Shown here piece after piece: positions 15,547 through 31,713 of a stretch of 64,000 nucleotides of DNA. Position 1 is the first letter of the stretch, and each line of letters begins with the position of its first letter. The position numbers and the translations under genes are program-made. The notes beneath the pieces were generated by a model. That model was not told where the DNA came from. It did not search any database and saw only the letters and a list, made by a program, of their open reading frames with translations. Source of the DNA: a virus; the IMG/VR virus record IMGVR_UViG_3300032246_001368, positions 1 through 64,000 of that record; one strand, written 5' to 3'.

Positions 15547-16164
15547 ATTTGGGGTTTCTAAATCCCTAATTTTCTTTGGAGCTGTGATAATGAAAGAATT
15601 TAATACTTCTTTTAATTTATCCAATTCACCGGTTGTACGTGTAATGTTGTCAGAAGACTTACGCATGATACCACGAAGTAAACTTCCAGCTCTGTCATTG
15701 TCTGATAAAAATTTATGCAATGAATCTATATTAGGATCATTCAACATAGCAGTAAATTCATCCAATTTGAGAGACCATTTCTCAATCTCCTCAATATTCC
15801 TTGTAGCGACCTCAGGTGGAACACCTTCTATTTCATAGGCATCTTTTGGAGTTTCAGGCTCTAAAGCCTTTTCAAAATCCTTTTTATTATCATCTTGTGA
15901 AAATTCAGATGGCTTCTTTGCTTCTCCTTCTGGAGCGACTTCTTCGGCTTCGGAAATTAATGAAGTTAAAAATCTGCTAGCAAATGGAATTTCTGAACTC
16001 TCGTTACAAGAATCACAAGTATCAGCACAATTGCACATAGGGAGATAATTGGAATCTAAAATTCTCTTAACTTCCTTTTCAACTTTAGGATTTCTAGAAG
16101 GTACAGTTGTTTTTACACCATATTTCTTTTTAGTTTTTAATTTGGCTTTTGCTGAATTTCTCAT
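15541..16164 (-). CDS. hypothetical protein, 207 aa
   Basis: ORF track; basic N-terminus, CNCADTCDSC, then LISE and an acidic/helical region; TAAATA 14 nt upstream. Confidence 0.7.
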   Translation of the reverse strand: MRNSAKAKLKTKKKYGVKTTVPSRNPKVEKEVKRILDSNYLPMCNCADTCDSCNESSEIPFASRFLTSLISEAEEVAPEGEAKKPSEFSQDDNKKDFEKALEPETPKDAYEIEGVPPEVATRNIEEIEKWSLKLDEFTAMLNDPNIDSLHKFLSDNDRAGSLLRGIMRKSSDNITRTTGELDKLKEVLNSFIITAPKKIRDLETPNS

Positions 16165-16188
16165 TATAATATATTCTATATTTACCTT

Positions 16189-16905
16189 ATGAATGTCAAA
16201 AACCCTAAATCAATTGTAATTTACAGCGGAGGACTCGATTCTACTTGTTTACTTTACAGAATTAACAAGACGTCAGAGGTTTTGTGTTTAATCTTTAACT
16301 ATGGTCAAAGACATTCCATAGAGATAGAAAGAGCTATTGAAAATTGTATTAAATTAAATGTTCCATATAAGGTGTTGGATATATCCTTTTTTAAAGATAT
16401 AGCATCCTCATCGGCTCTGTTAGATACGAGTTTGGAAATACCTAAAATAAAAGATGTTGCAGGCCATGCACAGCCCTTGTCTCATGTTCCTAACAGAAAT
16501 ATGATATTTTTATCAATTGCAGCAGCCATAGCAGAATCTATTAAAGCTCCAAATATTTACTATGGAGCTGCTGAAGTGGATACACATAGTGGCAATTGGG
16601 ATTGTTCTTTAGATTTTTTAAAATATATTAATCAAACTTTAAATTTAAATAGGTCAAATCAAGCACAGGTTGTTGCACCATATATTACCTTTTCTAAAGC
16701 AGATATTATCAAGGACGGGGTGAAAAATGGAGTAGATTTTACTAAAACGCATACCTGTTACAACGGCAAAAATGAAGGATGCTTAGAATGTTCAGCTTGC
16801 TCTAGTAGAGTACAAGGTTTTATAGAAGCACGGTTAATAGACCCTATCCCCTATATAAAACAAATAGAATGGGCGAAATATAATTGTCAACCAATTATAT
16901 TTTAA
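16189..16905 (+). CDS. queC: 7-cyano-7-deazaguanine synthase QueC
   Basis: PP-loop YSGGLDST; FNYGQRH..E; VPNRNMIFLSIA; WDCS (cf. YPDCR); Zn site THTCY...GCLECSACSSR. Confidence 0.93.
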   Translation: MNVKNPKSIVIYSGGLDSTCLLYRINKTSEVLCLIFNYGQRHSIEIERAIENCIKLNVPYKVLDISFFKDIASSSALLDTSLEIPKIKDVAGHAQPLSHVPNRNMIFLSIAAAIAESIKAPNIYYGAAEVDTHSGNWDCSLDFLKYINQTLNLNRSNQAQVVAPYITFSKADIIKDGVKNGVDFTKTHTCYNGKNEGCLECSACSSRVQGFIEARLIDPIPYIKQIEWAKYNCQPIIF

Positions 16906-16935
16906 ATATATTTTTTTTAAAGGATAAATATTTGC

Positions 16936-17640
16936 ATGACATTTGCAAACACCAACATTAAAAATAATTATTTAATATATAAAATCAATTTTGAAAAGAA
17001 TTATTATTACATAGGGGTTAGTAATAATTTTAAAAGACGTTTAACAGAACACAAATATCATAAAGCACATAAAATATTAAATTATGAATTTTTAGAAATA
17101 AATTTAAGTGAGGAAGAAGCTTATAATAAAGAAAAAAGTATAATTACAGATGATTTAATTAAAGATCCTTTATGTTTAAATCAAACTCGTGGAGGCAGAC
17201 ACCCGTACAATAAAAGATTAAATGTTCCACATTCAAAAGAAACAAAAGAAAAAATTTCCAATACCAAAAAAAGACAAGCTTCATTGGGTTTATTATGGGT
17301 GCAACAAGAAAAAAATAAAAACATTATTAAGGAAAGATGCTTAAGAGGTGATGATAATCCATCACGCCGTCCAGAAGTAAGAGAAAAAATAAGATTATCT
17401 AAATTAGGACCCCTCAATCCTCAATATGGGAAAAGGGGAACTATGTTAGGTAAAAAGGCATCACCTGAAACAAAACATAAGCAATTAATGAAATTAGGAT
17501 TCAAAATAAAAACACCAGTTGGAATTTTTATAGGAGCGGAAACCGCGGCTAAACATTACAAAATAAGATCCAAAACAGTTCTTAGTAGATGTCGTAATCA
17601 AAAATTTCCAGAATGGCAAATTTTAGGAAAAGGTGAATAA
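16936..17640 (+). CDS. GIY-YIG homing endonuclease with NUMOD3-like repeats
   Basis: LIYKI......YYIGVSNN..RR..EH; HSKETKEKIS, RPEVREKIRLSKLG..NP.YGK, SPETKHK; very low GC. Confidence 0.85.
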   Translation: MTFANTNIKNNYLIYKINFEKNYYYIGVSNNFKRRLTEHKYHKAHKILNYEFLEINLSEEEAYNKEKSIITDDLIKDPLCLNQTRGGRHPYNKRLNVPHSKETKEKISNTKKRQASLGLLWVQQEKNKNIIKERCLRGDDNPSRRPEVREKIRLSKLGPLNPQYGKRGTMLGKKASPETKHKQLMKLGFKIKTPVGIFIGAETAAKHYKIRSKTVLSRCRNQKFPEWQILGKGE

Positions 17641-17675
17641 AATATATTTTATAATATAATATCAGATAAAATTCC

Positions 17676-18359
17676 ATGGACAACGTACAATTGCAAACCT
17701 TTATAAAACAACATCATATAGTTTGTGCTACACCTCTCTCATTAGCTGAGTTTAATGAGAAGAGTAAATTAGCAATATTTCTAGACAAGACAGAATATAA
17801 AAACTATACTATTATAGACAATAATACTACTAGTTTATCCAAAGTATATAATTCCTTTATTACAGAAGAAAATAAAGATAAAAATATTATATTCATTCAC
17901 GATGATGTATTAATTGAAGACTTATTTTTTACAGAAAAGCTTGATATAGCTTTTGAAAAGTATGAAATAGTAGGATTAGCAGGAAGTAAGAAGACGGATC
18001 TTACTAAACCAGCAGCATGGCATTTAATGAGTGCCAAAGAAGATATGGTAGGTGAAGTAGGTCATGCATATCAAGGTAAATCATGGACTACAGTATTTGG
18101 ACCTACTAATTCAAGAGCCTTAGTGTTAGACGGATTATTCATAGGAGTAAATGTTTCAAGACTTTTAAAAACAGATACTAGGTTTGATGAAGATTTTGAT
18201 TTCCATCACTATGATATTTCATTTTGTTTAAGAGCTAATAAAAATAAATTAAAAATGGGTGTTGCTCCTATTAAAGTAACTCATTTTGGGTTAGGAGATA
18301 GTATGAATACTCCAGAATGGAATTCCAGTGCCGCAAAGTTCAATCTAAAGTATAATTGA
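17676..18359 (+). CDS. GT-A fold glycosyltransferase (Glyco_tranf_2_5-like)
   Basis: SLSKVYN; IIFIHDDV (DxD equivalent); VGLAGS; VLDGLFI; FDEDFDFHHYDISFCL. Confidence 0.82.
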   Translation: MDNVQLQTFIKQHHIVCATPLSLAEFNEKSKLAIFLDKTEYKNYTIIDNNTTSLSKVYNSFITEENKDKNIIFIHDDVLIEDLFFTEKLDIAFEKYEIVGLAGSKKTDLTKPAAWHLMSAKEDMVGEVGHAYQGKSWTTVFGPTNSRALVLDGLFIGVNVSRLLKTDTRFDEDFDFHHYDISFCLRANKNKLKMGVAPIKVTHFGLGDSMNTPEWNSSAAKFNLKYN

Positions 18360-18362
18360 TAT

Positions 18363-19031
18363 ATGTGTGGAATATACAGCGGTCTATCACCTATAGAATT
18401 TTATCATTTATATAAACATAATCAATCCAGAGGAAGTCATAGTTCTGGGTTTCTTTATATAGAAGATGAAGGATATCAAATTACAAAGACCTCTAAAAAG
18501 GATTACACATTCTTTCCAGATATAAAGAACGGATTTTATCTAGGACATAATAGAGCACCTACTACTAGTGGAGATACTAAAGGGCTTTCTAGTTGTCACC
18601 CATTTTCTTTTGGAAGAGCCATAGCAGCACATAATGGAATATTAACCAATACAGAAGCTCTAGAAAAGGTATATGGAATTAAATTTGATGTTGATAGTCA
18701 ATGGATTCCTTATCTTTATGATATAATGCTTAAAAAAACACATCTAAATCTAAAACCGGAAGAAGCTTTTAGATATGTGTTGGAAGATTTAAAAGGCACA
18801 TATGGAATTTGGCTTTATGATATTGAACAAGGATGTGTGTTTGTAGGTCGTGGTGATAATACAATATACTGGGACGGTAAGAATACTTCCTTCTCATCCA
18901 TTGCAGATGATACATATAAGAATTTAATGCCGGATGGTGCTATCTATATGAAGACCAAATCATCTGAAGTTTTTATTGATATAAATGCAGATAGAAGGTT
19001 GAAAAGAGAACAGAAGTACTTTATGATATAA
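18363..19031 (+). CDS. class II (Ntn) glutamine amidotransferase, stand-alone
   Basis: N-terminal nucleophile MCGI; SRGSHSSG; LGHNRAPT; CHPF; AHNGILTN; VDSQ. Confidence 0.88.
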   Translation: MCGIYSGLSPIEFYHLYKHNQSRGSHSSGFLYIEDEGYQITKTSKKDYTFFPDIKNGFYLGHNRAPTTSGDTKGLSSCHPFSFGRAIAAHNGILTNTEALEKVYGIKFDVDSQWIPYLYDIMLKKTHLNLKPEEAFRYVLEDLKGTYGIWLYDIEQGCVFVGRGDNTIYWDGKNTSFSSIADDTYKNLMPDGAIYMKTKSSEVFIDINADRRLKREQKYFMI

Positions 19032-19034
19032 TAT

Positions 19035-19607
19035 ATGAGTTATTTAAAACAAGACTACAACGGCGATTTGATTCACAAGAGATTTGGATATGAGTATTTC
19101 AAGAAAGAATATAATCCTCTAGGTGTTATTATTGCTTTCCGAGGTAACATGGACGTTACGGATAATTTAATTGATCTAGAAGATAAGCTGAATAATGATT
19201 ACATTTATTCTGAAGATGCATTAAATTTCTGTTGGGAGATTCCTAATATCTGCCCTATTGGAGCAGTCTTCTTCCAGAGACTCTTTGCTCGTTATATTGG
19301 AGATGAATTGGCTTGTGGTTCTTATGGCAAGCTTGATGTTAAGGTAGACGGAGATGATATTATGATTCGTAAGCCAGGAGATGATTCCTTTGGCAAGGCA
19401 AGTGTTAGTATCACTAAGGTCATTGATGGTAATGTAGCTATAGGACATCTTGGTTTGAATATTAATGCAGGGCCTAAAGCACCTTCATTTGCATTCTCAC
19501 TCTTCCTTGATGATGCCACTGCTTCTAATCTTTGCAGACGCGTTAAGGAAATCTATCATGAGACTATAGCAGATTGCTTCATTGCTACTTGCAAAGTGGT
19601 GATATAA
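19035..19607 (+). CDS. DUF366 family protein (biotin/lipoate ligase-like fold)
   Basis: YNG..I...F.Y; IIAFRG.MDV...LIDLED.....IYSEDAL.F..E; QRLF; GDDIM; KASVSI; HLGLNI match the DUF366 pattern as recalled. Confidence 0.8.
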   Translation: MSYLKQDYNGDLIHKRFGYEYFKKEYNPLGVIIAFRGNMDVTDNLIDLEDKLNNDYIYSEDALNFCWEIPNICPIGAVFFQRLFARYIGDELACGSYGKLDVKVDGDDIMIRKPGDDSFGKASVSITKVIDGNVAIGHLGLNINAGPKAPSFAFSLFLDDATASNLCRRVKEIYHETIADCFIATCKVVI

Positions 19608-19633: not shown

Positions 19634-20269
19634 ATGAATAATACATATTATGGGTTTATATATCTTTGGGAAAATACACATCCAACAGCAGACAAATATA
19701 AAAAATATATAGGTCAGCATGTTGGATGTGTTGAAGATGGATATATAGGTTCTGGAATAATTTTTTTAAAAAAATTTTATTGTAAAAAATATAGAAATTT
19801 TTGGAAAAGAACTATTCTTGAATATTGTCAAGATCAAACCAAATTAGATGAAGCCGAAAATAAATATATAAAAGATAATAATGCTATAGATAGTGAAATT
19901 TTTTGTAATATAAGGCATGGTGGTAGAACAGGTAAATTAAACCCTTCTTCCATTATAAAAATGAAAGAATCTTTAAAAGGCAGAATACCGTGGAATAAAG
20001 GTAAAAAAACAGGTAAACAATCAAAAAAATTAAAAGAAAAAAGGGTAAAGTCTTTAATGGCTAGTAAACAAATTGAAAGAGAAAAAGATTACGAAATAAT
20101 AATTGATTTAATTTCTGAAAAATCTTTTCTTAAAAGAGAAGATTTACAAAACTCATTTAAAAAGTGGAAAGCAACAAAAAGACTTAATGATTTAATCAAA
20201 ATAAATAAACTAAAAATATTTAAAAATAAAAATGGAGAACATTTTTATACTTTGAATAAATCGTTGTAA
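19634..20269 (+). CDS. Seg-like GIY-YIG homing endonuclease
   Basis: YGFIYLWEN.......KKYIGQH......GYIGSG...F.RTILE; GRIPWNKGKK; ATG at 19634 preferred over 19574 (TAAGTA 5 nt upstream, no overlap). Confidence 0.85.
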   Translation: MNNTYYGFIYLWENTHPTADKYKKYIGQHVGCVEDGYIGSGIIFLKKFYCKKYRNFWKRTILEYCQDQTKLDEAENKYIKDNNAIDSEIFCNIRHGGRTGKLNPSSIIKMKESLKGRIPWNKGKKTGKQSKKLKEKRVKSLMASKQIEREKDYEIIIDLISEKSFLKREDLQNSFKKWKATKRLNDLIKINKLKIFKNKNGEHFYTLNKSL

Positions 20270-20297: not shown

Positions 20298-20690
20298 ATG
20301 GTTAAGAAGAATACTATAGATGGTCTGTTTCCTCTATTAGATTGGATTCTTAAAAAGAAGGGAAAGCTTCCGGTAGATTCAACTCTGCCGGGAGTATTTC
20401 TTATTAATAGATGGTTGTCTATGTCTGAGGGATCTGTAGCTCAAATAGTAAATGCTACTTCCAATAGATGGATAAACAAAACAGAATTAGGAAAAGACAA
20501 TTTGTCTATAAGCAAATTCTTTAATGTAGTATTACCTAAATCTTTTAAAAGAATAACCTATATTAAAAAATCTACTAAAGAATCACATCTAGAAGATGTG
20601 TCAAATGTAGCAAATGCTATGGAATGTTCTATTAAAGAAGTAGAATTTTATAATAGAACCCTTGCAGAATTGAAACAAAAACTTAAATAA
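20298..20690 (+). CDS. probable clamp loader small subunit (T4 gp62-like)
   Basis: FLINRWLSM, LPK..KRITYIKK and VANAMECSIKEVEFY resemble gp62 homologues; 130 aa. Confidence 0.55.
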   Translation: MVKKNTIDGLFPLLDWILKKKGKLPVDSTLPGVFLINRWLSMSEGSVAQIVNATSNRWINKTELGKDNLSISKFFNVVLPKSFKRITYIKKSTKESHLEDVSNVANAMECSIKEVEFYNRTLAELKQKLK

Positions 20691-31167: not shown

Positions 31168-31713
31168 ATGAAATACGCTTTAACTGGATCTCATGGTGTA
31201 GGTAAGACTACTATAATCAATGAATTATGTGATTATCTTGAATCTAGTGATATTAGTCCAATTATTAATAGCAGTAATGCTAGAAAGATCAAGCAATCAG
31301 GAAGAACTATCAATGATTCCGGAGACGATATTGTCCAGATGATTGTTGAATGTAGTCATGTTAGTAAATTCTGCGAGGATAATTGGTTTGCTGATCGTAG
31401 TGTTTTGGATGGATATGCTTATACGAAATATCTTCATACATCTGGTAAGGTTTCAGATGAGGTTATGAATGTTGTTCATAAATTAATGTCTACCTTTGTT
31501 AAGCTTTATGATGTAATATTCTATATACCAGTAGAATTTGATATGATTAAAGATGGAGTGAGAAAAGAAGACGGGCAATTCCAGAAGGATATCGATAAGA
31601 TTATCTTTAATACGATGTACGACAATAATGTAAATTTTCATACTATTACTGGTTCAATAGAAGAAAGAGTAGAGAAGATTAAAAGTATTATTCACCCTCA
31701 CTTTGATTTTTAA
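31168..31713 (+). CDS. second P-loop nucleotide kinase-like protein (AAA_28/NadR-type)
   Basis: TGSHGVGKTT; ADRSVLDGYAY; YDVIFYIP; KDGVR; ITGSIEERV. Confidence 0.8.
   Translation: MKYALTGSHGVGKTTIINELCDYLESSDISPIINSSNARKIKQSGRTINDSGDDIVQMIVECSHVSKFCEDNWFADRSVLDGYAYTKYLHTSGKVSDEVMNVVHKLMSTFVKLYDVIFYIPVEFDMIKDGVRKEDGQFQKDIDKIIFNTMYDNNVNFHTITGSIEERVEKIKSIIHPHFDF

What the first reader, a model, noticed from the sequence alone, without database searches (positions are those of the whole stretch)
16189..19607. QueC + glycosyltransferase + Ntn amidotransferase + DUF366: candidate new 7-deazaguanine modification system
Seen: ignoring the inserted GIY-YIG gene, four co-oriented genes encode intact QueC, a GT-A glycosyltransferase, a stand-alone class II GATase (MCGI) and a DUF366 protein; the last three are spaced 3 nt apart. 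Established: QueC adenylates CDG to make preQ0; Gat-QueC fusions make archaeosine-type bases in archaea and phages; phages place 7-deazaguanines in DNA via DpdA; QueC homologues in QatABCD and type IV CBASS act with protein partners. DUF366 has no assigned function and, as recalled, a biotin/lipoate-ligase-like fold, which normally transfers adenylated carboxylates to amines. Inference: a split Gat/QueC plus a ligase-fold protein and a GT could build an amidated and/or glycosylated deazaguanine on DNA, tRNA or protein that is not among described phage modifications. No dpdA/tgt, folE, queD or queE is visible in this window.
Basis: partly seen in the sequence, partly recalled or inferred. Interest (0 to 1): 0.9.

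Follow-up and report, generated by a model that had tools for sequence, protein, structure and literature searches.

The report
Phage deazaguanine genes with DUF366 partner
Three of these four phage genes (QueC, a separate glutaminase and the unstudied DUF366 protein) are the local part of a scattered system of a known kind that swaps guanine in phage DNA for a 7-deazaguanine; the sugar transferase is kept by relatives that lack that system, so a sugar-bearing new base is unlikely.

Summary
QueC, a GT-A glycosyltransferase, a class II (Ntn) glutamine amidotransferase and a DUF366 protein lie co-oriented at 16189-19607. Two GIY-YIG homing endonucleases are inserted here; close relatives lack both.

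The 111 kb contig (about 52% complete) has no DpdA, FolE, QueD or QueE. Related phages with this cluster, including two complete genomes, do carry a DpdA3-type DNA transglycosylase plus QueD and QueE.

QueC, GATase, DUF366, DpdA3 and QueD are present together or absent together. Eleven relatives, three of them complete or nearly so, have none of the five. They still keep the glycosyltransferase at the same locus.

The GATase is homologous to the Gat half of phage Gat-QueC fusions, so this is a split Gat-QueC. DUF366 has the PH0223 / biotin-lipoate-ligase-like fold. In 49 of 55 informative metagenome loci it sits directly behind queC or a DpdA3-like gene.

Verdict: a new variant of the known DpdA3-type 7-deazaguanine DNA modification. 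The base is probably at the preQ0/G+ stage and not glycosylated. DUF366 is the real new lead. This scan reached the same reading before on at least six other genomes.

The parts
16142..16170 (+). sigma-70-like promoter match (TTGGCT-17-TATAAT) 19 nt before the queC start
   Evidence: This is a consensus match only; the count of such sites in the region is not above the shuffled controls.
16189..16905 (+). QueC, 7-cyano-7-deazaguanine (preQ0) synthase, 238 aa
   Evidence: PF06508 1.6e-56; TIGR00364 above cut-off; PP-loop and Cys4 zinc motif intact.
16936..17640 (+). GIY-YIG/NUMOD3 homing endonuclease, inserted into the former queC 3' end / GT 5' overlap; not part of the pathway
   Evidence: It is absent from relatives. 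A remnant of the old queC 3' end (ATATCAGATAAAATTCCATGG) is kept in front of the GT gene.
17676..18359 (+). GT-A glycosyltransferase (PF13712), 227 aa; a resident gene of this locus, probably not part of the deazaguanine pathway
   Evidence: Pfam 3.2e-11. Model pLDDT 92.1; best fold match is majastridin with UDP (2qgi, TM 0.69). Relatives without the pathway keep it.
18363..19031 (+). stand-alone class II (Ntn) glutamine amidotransferase, 222 aa; the split-off Gat half of Gat-QueC
   Evidence: hhalign to the Gat domain of a Gat-QueC fusion: 96%, E 4.7e-9. It co-varies with QueC.
19035..19607 (+). DUF366 (PF04017) protein, 190 aa, PH0223-like / biotin-lipoate-ligase-like fold; candidate unrecognised member of 7-deazaguanine pathways
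   Evidence: Pfam 2e-19. Profile match to 2DDZ at 1e-6. Model pLDDT 90.7. Foldseek: 2DDZ TM 0.76-0.79, then BPL/LplA TM 0.45-0.57. Gene-neighbourhood and co-variation evidence.
19634..20269 (+). second GIY-YIG/NUMOD3 homing endonuclease, inserted between DUF366 and the next gene (20298-20690)
   Evidence: In relatives the DUF366 stop overlaps the start of that next gene (TAATG).

Best explanation
The locus is the local part of a scattered DpdA3-type 7-deazaguanine DNA modification system of an uncultured, roughly 210 kb T4-like phage.

Shown: QueC is an intact preQ0 synthase. The neighbouring class II GATase is homologous to the Gat domain of phage Gat-QueC fusions. QueC, GATase, DUF366, a DpdA3 transglycosylase and QueD are inherited together or lost together in this phage lineage.

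Inferred: FolE (host or phage), QueD and QueE make CDG. QueC, fed with ammonia from glutamine by the GATase, converts CDG to preQ0 and possibly on to the amidine G+. DpdA3 exchanges guanine in phage DNA for that base, which protects the DNA from restriction.

The closest complete relative has no QueF, so the base should stay at the preQ0/ADG/G+ stage.

DUF366 probably acts on or hands over the C7-carboxylate, amide or nitrile intermediate (CDG, ADG or preQ0). One possibility is adenylate chemistry, as in the biotin/lipoate ligases and AsnA. This step is a guess from fold and gene neighbourhood.

The glycosyltransferase is a resident gene with a function of its own.
For: Families and motifs.

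DpdA3: the reference protein from Flavobacterium phage immuto_13-6C (annotated DpdA within a que cluster) matches cluster-bearing relatives G003 (2.5e-72), G002 (6.6e-52), G004 and G001. All five relatives have QueC, DUF366 and PTPS/QueD. A QueE-like gene sits in G002.

Contig ends: in G002, DpdA3 lies between polB and UvsX. This contig has none of polB, UvsX or the DnaB-type helicase. The QueD-PRTase pair maps just past its right end.

Co-variation: 11 relatives that carry only the GT at this locus (three of them 92-100% complete) have 0 QueC, 0 DUF366, 0 DpdA3 and 0 PTPS. The six of them that were searched for the GATase have 0 GATase. A core-gene tree places a 13-member GT-only clade next to this phage's clade.

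Split Gat-QueC: hhalign 96%, E 4.7e-9, over residues 1-209 of a 468-aa GATase_7+QueC fusion.

DUF366: of 55 metagenome loci with enough upstream sequence, 31 have queC and 18 a DpdA3-like gene directly upstream and co-oriented. Some are clearly cellular, for example queC-DUF366-queE-folE.

QueF is absent from G001, G002 and G004.

Literature: DpdA3 gives complete G replacement. Gat-QueC is one of the interchangeable enzymes for preQ0 to G+, and phage 9g encodes it (PMC10516641).
Against: This contig itself shows no DpdA, QueD or QueE. Their presence is inferred from relatives and synteny.

No DNA chemistry was measured.

In the distant clade (G003, G005) a homologue of the GT (37-39% identity) again lies within two or three genes of QueC and the GATase, at a different locus between UvsX and the DnaB helicase. 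This is odd for a pure bystander.

The GATase also occurs beside QueC in phages that have QueF (G003; Vibrio phage 2.275.O). That fits an ammonia donor for preQ0 synthesis better than a G+ synthase, so the final base is unresolved.

Studied DpdA3 phages (immuto, phiST, CP220) have no DUF366, so DUF366 is not needed for DpdA3 action as such.
Confidence: 0.6

Rival explanations
1. The four genes form one pathway that builds a glycosylated, or amidated and glycosylated, 7-deazaguanine in DNA. The GT would add a sugar to the base or to a precursor.
For: GT, GAT and DUF366 are 3 nt apart. In the distant clade a GT homologue is again close to QueC and the GATase at another locus. The GT is a genuine GT-A with a DxD motif and a UDP-binding fold match.
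Against: About 70 of 78 related loci have primase / 207-aa gene / GT / next genes with no QueC, GAT or DUF366. Eleven such genomes, three of them 92-100% complete, lack QueC, DUF366, DpdA3 and QueD yet keep the GT at 55-69% identity; the six searched for the GATase lack it too. So the GT works without any deazaguanine. Cellular and other viral DUF366/queC clusters carry no such GT.
Confidence: 0.08
2. The genes are auxiliary metabolic genes that raise the host's preQ0/queuosine supply for tRNA, with no DNA modification.
For: No DpdA in the held contig. Vibrio phage 2.275.O has QueF, a YhhQ-like transporter gene, QueC, an Ntn GATase and FolE together, which looks like precursor supply. In cells DUF366 sits in ordinary preQ0 operons.
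Against: Relatives with the cluster encode DpdA3, four of five including both complete genomes, and DpdA3 is lost together with QueC and DUF366. According to PMC10516641, all viruses with deazaguanine synthesis genes examined there encode a DpdA. The polB/UvsX region that holds DpdA3 in G002 is missing from this contig for reasons of completeness.
Confidence: 0.1
3. DUF366 is the enzyme that decides the product. As a ligase-fold enzyme it would adenylate CDG and join it to ammonia (from the GATase) or another amine, giving ADG or an N-substituted 7-amido-7-deazaguanine that has not been described.
For: BPL/LplA-like fold. Family-wide conserved polar residues include K121 in a G-K-x-S-V-S-I strand, plus E68, Q81, R82, GDD 106-108, H138, N142 and K187. 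Eighteen viral loci have DpdA3-like/DUF366 with QueE nearby and no QueC within 6 kb, which suggests action on CDG. The distant-clade QueC has lost three of its four zinc cysteines.
Against: No ATP-binding or biotin-ligase signature was detected by sequence: no BPL_LplA_LipB Pfam match. E. coli and B. subtilis QueC need no such partner. Those viral loci are short, so QueC may lie elsewhere. Nothing was tested biochemically.
Confidence: 0.15

Closest known systems
DpdA3-type phage 7-deazaguanine DNA modification (Flavobacterium phage vB_FspM_immuto, Cellulophaga phage phiST, Campylobacter phage CP220; NAR 2023, PMC10516641)
   Same: Relatives of this phage encode a DpdA3 homologue (43-50% identity to the immuto protein) together with QueC, QueD and QueE. 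A phosphoribosyltransferase also lies in the que cluster, as in immuto.
   Different: The genes are scattered over the genome. A stand-alone GATase and DUF366 travel with the pathway here and are missing from the studied DpdA3 phages. In this clade there is no QueF, DpdL-type set or DpdN-like formyltransferase beside them. The modified base is unknown.
Gat-QueC of Enterobacteria phage 9g / Queuovirinae and Crenarchaeota (preQ0 to archaeosine, dG+ in DNA)
   Same: Both halves are present and homologous. The GATase aligns with residues 1-209 of the Gat-QueC of Alteromonas phage vB_AcoS-R7M, starting at the N-terminal Cys. QueC matches the C-terminal half (phrog_10428 positions 255-460).
   Different: There are two separate genes, here with another gene between them. 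They are paired with DpdA3, not DpdA1. The same split pair occurs in phages that also have QueF, so it may simply make QueC glutamine-dependent.
PH0223 of Pyrococcus horikoshii (PDB 2DDZ), the only solved DUF366 / PF04017 member
   Same: Same family and fold: profile E 1e-6, TM 0.76-0.79. Same length, with no extra domains.
   Different: 22-23% identity. PH0223 has no assigned function; the only mention found in the paper library lists it in the tables of a Pyrococcus protein-interaction screen (PMC1414084).
Biotin protein ligase / lipoate protein ligase (BirA, LplA) catalytic domain
   Same: Related fold (Foldseek E 3e-5 and weaker, TM 0.45-0.57). A conserved lysine sits in a beta-strand motif.
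   Different: No sequence-level membership. About 190 aa with no accessory domains. Substrate and chemistry unknown.
Vibrio phage 2.275.O._10N.286.54.E11 (MG592671) que cluster
   Same: QueC is directly followed by a stand-alone Ntn GATase homologous to the one here.
   Different: It has QueF, a YhhQ-like transporter gene and FolE alongside. It has no DUF366.

Membership tests
QueC (TIGR00364 / PF06508) | PP-loop SGGxDS ATP site and Cys4 zinc site; score above the curated cut-off | tested here: met
   172.5 bits against a cut-off of 150.3. SGGLDS and C190-X8-C-X2-C-X2-C are present.
Gat-QueC | class II GATase domain homologous to the Gat domain, with an N-terminal Cys nucleophile | tested here: met
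   MCGI N-terminus, with R23/G24, HNG and D111 invariant. hhalign 96%, E 4.7e-9.
Gat-QueC | GATase and QueC fused in one polypeptide | tested here: not met
   They are separate ORFs. Here a homing endonuclease and the GT lie between them; in L011-L013 they are adjacent genes.
DpdA-dependent phage 7-deazaguanine DNA modification | a DpdA-family transglycosylase encoded by the same genome | tested here: inconclusive
   None in the held 111 kb, which is about 52% complete. Present in four of five cluster-bearing relatives, including both complete ones. Its neighbours polB and UvsX are also off this contig.
DpdA-dependent phage 7-deazaguanine DNA modification | CDG/preQ0 synthesis genes (QueD, QueE, QueC) | tested here: inconclusive
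   QueC is here. QueD and QueE are found only in relatives.
DpdA-dependent phage 7-deazaguanine DNA modification | a 7-deazaguanine nucleoside in virion DNA | not testable with these tools
   Uncultured phage; no DNA chemistry is available.
DUF366 (PF04017) | Pfam score above the gathering cut-off and the PH0223 fold | tested here: met
   70.2 bits against a cut-off of 29.9. 2DDZ TM 0.76-0.79.
Biotin/lipoate protein ligase family (BPL_LplA_LipB) | sequence membership and adenylate-forming active-site motifs | tested here: not met
   No Pfam BPL_LplA_LipB match. Only fold-level similarity. Residue-level superposition of the catalytic lysine was not done.
GT-A glycosyltransferase (PF13712) | DxD motif and GT-A fold with a nucleotide-sugar site | tested here: met
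   HDD 75-77 is invariant. pLDDT 92.1; majastridin-UDP TM 0.69.
GT as a member of the deazaguanine system | inherited and lost together with QueC, DpdA3 and DUF366 | tested here: not met
   It is kept in 11 genomes with none of these genes.
QatABCD / type IV CBASS QueC-like proteins | match to the QatC or Cap9 models, with QatA/B/D or CD-NTase neighbours | tested here: not met
   PADLOC gives only the generic QueC model (73.8 bits) and nothing for the other three proteins. The neighbours are phage replication genes.

The most novel reading that the evidence does not exclude
DUF366 is a missing enzyme of 7-deazaguanine metabolism, in cells and in phages. It would activate the C7 carboxylate of CDG, and in this phage, together with the glutaminase, give a DNA base not yet described (an amide-linked derivative or, with the GT, a sugar-bearing one).
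Probability: 0.15. Interest if true: 0.85.

Novelty: new variant of a known kind. Interest (0 to 1): 0.55.

Why it matters
7-Deazaguanine DNA modifications are a major way for phages to escape restriction, and the preQ0 pathway is regarded as fully known. Two proteins here always travel with the pathway and are missing from every studied phage system: a free-standing glutaminase, and DUF366, a conserved ligase-fold family with a solved structure but no function. DUF366 also sits directly behind queC or a DpdA3-like gene in 49 of 55 informative environmental loci, cellular ones included. No paper in the searched library mentions the family. This gives a testable function for an orphan family. 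It may also explain why DpdA3 systems have not been reconstituted in E. coli.

Tried and rejected
- Co-fold of QueC with DUF366 (complex prediction): no answer (score 0.00, controls not run). This is not evidence either way.
Contexts of cellular DUF366 genes were obtained through a metagenome scan instead.
- Pfam TGT, PTPS, GTP cyclohydrolase I and Radical_SAM searches of the own contig: nothing. Pfam TGT also misses the DpdA3 genes of relatives, so that negative result was uninformative until a DpdA3 reference protein was used.
- blastn of the locus against isolate phages: no match.
- tblastn of DUF366 against isolate phages: only 'Microcystis phage MaAM05', whose context looks bacterial.
- tblastn of the GT against isolate phages: no match.
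- The 323-aa gene upstream of DUF366 in G003 was tested as a DpdA candidate and rejected: it matches only Synechococcus phage S-SKS1 hypothetical proteins.
- Genome-contig scan with the viral DUF366 alignment: one short MAG contig only.
- DUF366 in 400 sampled Pseudomonadota genomes: none.
- Two diverse DUF366 alignments were too variable for the metagenome scan.
- Literature searches for DUF366, PF04017, COG2029 and PH0223: no functional study found.
- No supplementary tables were held for the NAR 2023 paper.
- Defence-system (Qat / type IV CBASS) reading: rejected.
Full report
**Observation.** The window is the first 64 kb of a 111,583-bp IMG/VR viral contig that CheckV rates about 52% complete.
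- QueC scores 1.6e-56 and is above the TIGR00364 cut-off. Its SGGLDS PP-loop and CX8CX2CX2C zinc motif are intact.
- The inserted gene is a GIY-YIG/NUMOD3 endonuclease.
- The GT is a PF13712 GT-A glycosyltransferase with an invariant HDD motif.
- The class II glutamine amidotransferase keeps its N-terminal Cys, R23/G24, HNG and D111 across relatives.
- The last gene is a DUF366 protein (2e-19).

GT, GAT and DUF366 are 3 nt apart. A second GIY-YIG gene follows DUF366 and probably starts at ATG 19634. Close relatives (74-87% protein identity) lack both endonucleases. In them queC overlaps the GT gene, and the DUF366 stop overlaps the next start.

**The phage.** No isolate phage is close. The best helicase identity is under 30%, and the locus gives no blastn match. 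IMG/VR nevertheless holds hundreds of related contigs: 446 with DUF366 and 416 with the GT. Among them are complete genomes of about 203-212 kb with T4-like replication genes.

**The rest of the pathway.** The contig has no TGT, PTPS, GTP cyclohydrolase I or radical-SAM match. Notes from earlier runs of this scan on other genomes pointed to DpdA3, a transglycosylase subfamily that Pfam TGT does not detect (PMC10516641).

I took the annotated DpdA from Flavobacterium phage vB_FspM_immuto_13-6C as reference. It lies in a cluster of QueD, QueE, PRTase, FolE, MazG, DpdA, formyltransferase, kinase and QueF. It matches cluster-bearing relatives G003 (100% complete, 2.5e-72), G002 (99% complete, 6.6e-52), G004 and G001. 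It does not match this contig.

All five cluster-bearing relatives also have PTPS/QueD. G002 has a QueE-like gene and a QueD-phosphoribosyltransferase pair.

In G002 the gene order is QueE-like, 435 aa, polB, DpdA3, ThyX, 136 aa, UvsX, QueD, DnaB-type helicase. This contig has no polB, UvsX or DnaB-type helicase at all, so the block lies in the missing half. The QueD-PRTase pair maps just beyond the right end. The absence of dpdA, queD and queE here is therefore a matter of completeness.

**Which genes belong together.** The GT search gave the clearest result. About 70 of 78 related loci read primase, 207-aa gene, GT, then the genes that here follow DUF366. They have no QueC, GATase or DUF366.

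| Group of relatives | QueC | DUF366 | DpdA3 | PTPS/QueD | GATase |
|---|---|---|---|---|---|
| GT-only at this locus (11 records; three 92-100% complete) | 0/11 | 0/11 | 0/11 | 0/11 | 0/6 |
| Cluster-bearing (G001-G005) | 5/5 | 5/5 | 4/5 | 5/5 | 4/4 |

The same DpdA3 and GATase queries hit the cluster-bearing genomes, which serves as the positive control.

A quick tree of primase plus two downstream core proteins has 57 rows. It places a 13-member GT-only clade beside this phage's clade, inside a grade of system-bearing phages. That tree is a quick search, and only one change of state is forced by well-supported branches.

So QueC, GATase, DUF366, DpdA3 and QueD behave as one unit, and the GT is kept without them.

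One caveat remains. In the distant clade (G003, G005) DUF366 lies about 37-40 kb from QueC. There a GT homologue (37-39% identity) again sits two or three genes from QueC and the GATase, between UvsX and the DnaB helicase. I take this as the main evidence against a pure bystander. It does not outweigh the retention of the GT in pathway-free genomes.

**The GATase.** Its profile aligns with residues 1-209 of the 468-aa Gat-QueC fusion (GATase_7 plus QueC) of Alteromonas phage vB_AcoS-R7M. The alignment starts at the Cys nucleophile, with 96% probability and E 4.7e-9. That fusion sits in a QueE, Gat-QueC, QueD, FolE, TGT cluster of the phage 9g type.

Gat-QueC is one of the interchangeable enzymes for the preQ0-to-archaeosine step, and phage 9g encodes it together with DpdA1 (PMC10516641).

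However, the same split pair occurs with QueF in G003 and in the isolate Vibrio phage 2.275.O, where the order is QueF, YhhQ-like gene, QueC, Ntn GATase, FolE. This fits a glutaminase that feeds ammonia to QueC for preQ0 synthesis.

G001, G002 and G004 have no QueF. In this clade the base should therefore stay at the preQ0, ADG or G+ stage. I cannot tell which.

**DUF366.**
- The AlphaFold model is confident (pLDDT 90.7).
- It matches PH0223 (2DDZ) at TM 0.76-0.79, then biotin and lipoate protein ligases at TM 0.45-0.57. The family profile finds 2DDZ at 1e-6.
- The family is small: 363 clusters at 50% identity among 1.84 billion representatives. Full-length members among the 150 listed hits are single-domain proteins of about 170-240 aa, mostly near 190 aa.
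- Conserved polar residues are E68, Q81, R82, GDD 106-108, K121 in a G-K-x-S-V-S-I strand, H138, N142 and K187.
- No paper in the library mentions DUF366 or PF04017. PH0223 appears only in the tables of a Pyrococcus interaction screen.

To test the link with que genes independently, I scanned metagenome contigs with a cellular-type DUF366 alignment. Fifty-five loci had at least 750 bp of upstream sequence. In 31 of them queC lies directly upstream and co-oriented, and in 18 a DpdA3-like gene does. Six have something else.
- Some contigs are clearly cellular: queC-DUF366-riboflavin synthase on a 206 kb contig, and queC-DUF366-queE-folE...surE at 56% GC.
- Others are viral: QueD...QueE-PRTase-QueC-DUF366, or intein-bearing QueE...DpdA3-like-DUF366.

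DUF366 is thus a recurrent but undescribed member of 7-deazaguanine gene sets. Its chemistry is open. My best guess is action on, or hand-over of, the C7 carboxylate, amide or nitrile intermediate. Studied DpdA3 phages lack it, so it is not needed for base exchange itself.

**The GT.** The model is confident (pLDDT 92.1). It is a GT-A fold, closest to majastridin with bound UDP (TM 0.69). The acceptor is unknown.

**Verdict.** The locus belongs to a known kind of system, DpdA3-type 7-deazaguanine DNA modification. It is a new variant, with a split Gat-QueC and a DUF366 partner. A glycosylated base is unlikely (about 0.08). This scan reached the same reading on at least six other genomes. I re-tested its main claims here and they held.

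Noticed in passing
L084:1408-2160 (G003) and L085:1420-2169 (G005): QueC of the distant phage clade keeps the PP-loop but has lost three of the four zinc-binding cysteines (TWTCYS...ADADTPSSSLR). This clade also has QueF, and its DUF366 lies 37-40 kb away from QueC.
   Followed up: no
L086:939-1409 (G002), L106:10924-11319 (immuto_13-6C), L200:4506-4973: A small type I phosphoribosyltransferase (PF00156) recurs inside 7-deazaguanine clusters: QueD-PRTase in G002, QueE..PRTase-FolE in the immuto phage, and QueE-PRTase-QueC-DUF366 in metagenome loci L198-L202. It recalls ToyH of toyocamycin synthesis (from memory) and hints at a nucleotide-level branch.
   Followed up: partly
L203-L228, L237, L238 (metagenome loci): Eighteen viral-looking loci have a 240-250 aa DpdA3-like gene (25-32% identity to the immuto DpdA3, no Pfam match) directly followed by DUF366. 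QueE, sometimes split by an intein, and an AAA ATPase lie upstream. No QueC is seen within 6 kb.
   Followed up: partly
window 31168-31713 (+): A 181-aa dNMP-kinase-like ORF is 30% identical (2.8e-16) to the thymidylate kinase that lies two genes downstream of DpdA3 in Flavobacterium phage immuto_13-6C. In G003 its homologue directly follows DpdA3.
   Followed up: no
window 16905-17676: The first GIY-YIG gene sits exactly where queC and the GT gene overlap in relatives. queC here has a different C-terminus, and a remnant of the old queC end (codons ISDKIPW) survives just before the GT start.
   Followed up: partly
L096:3679-7962 (G003): In the distant clade, DUF366 is preceded by an island of GT47-like, GT4 and GT1-like glycosyltransferases, a class I methyltransferase, and a 323-aa gene shared only with Synechococcus phage S-SKS1. 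A GNAT acetyltransferase lies between the GATase and the GT at the QueC locus.
   Followed up: no
L103 (MW495066.1, 'Microcystis phage MaAM05', 108417-124929): The only isolate 'phage' record with a DUF366 gene carries it among secF, glyS, mtgA, fabI and fliM. This stretch looks like bacterial DNA.
   Followed up: no
L278 (Vibrio phage 2.275.O, MG592671, 333209-337242): This isolate jumbo phage has QueF, a YhhQ-like transporter gene, QueC, a stand-alone Ntn GATase and FolE in a row. It is a culturable system in which the split QueC/GATase pair could be tested.
   Followed up: partly
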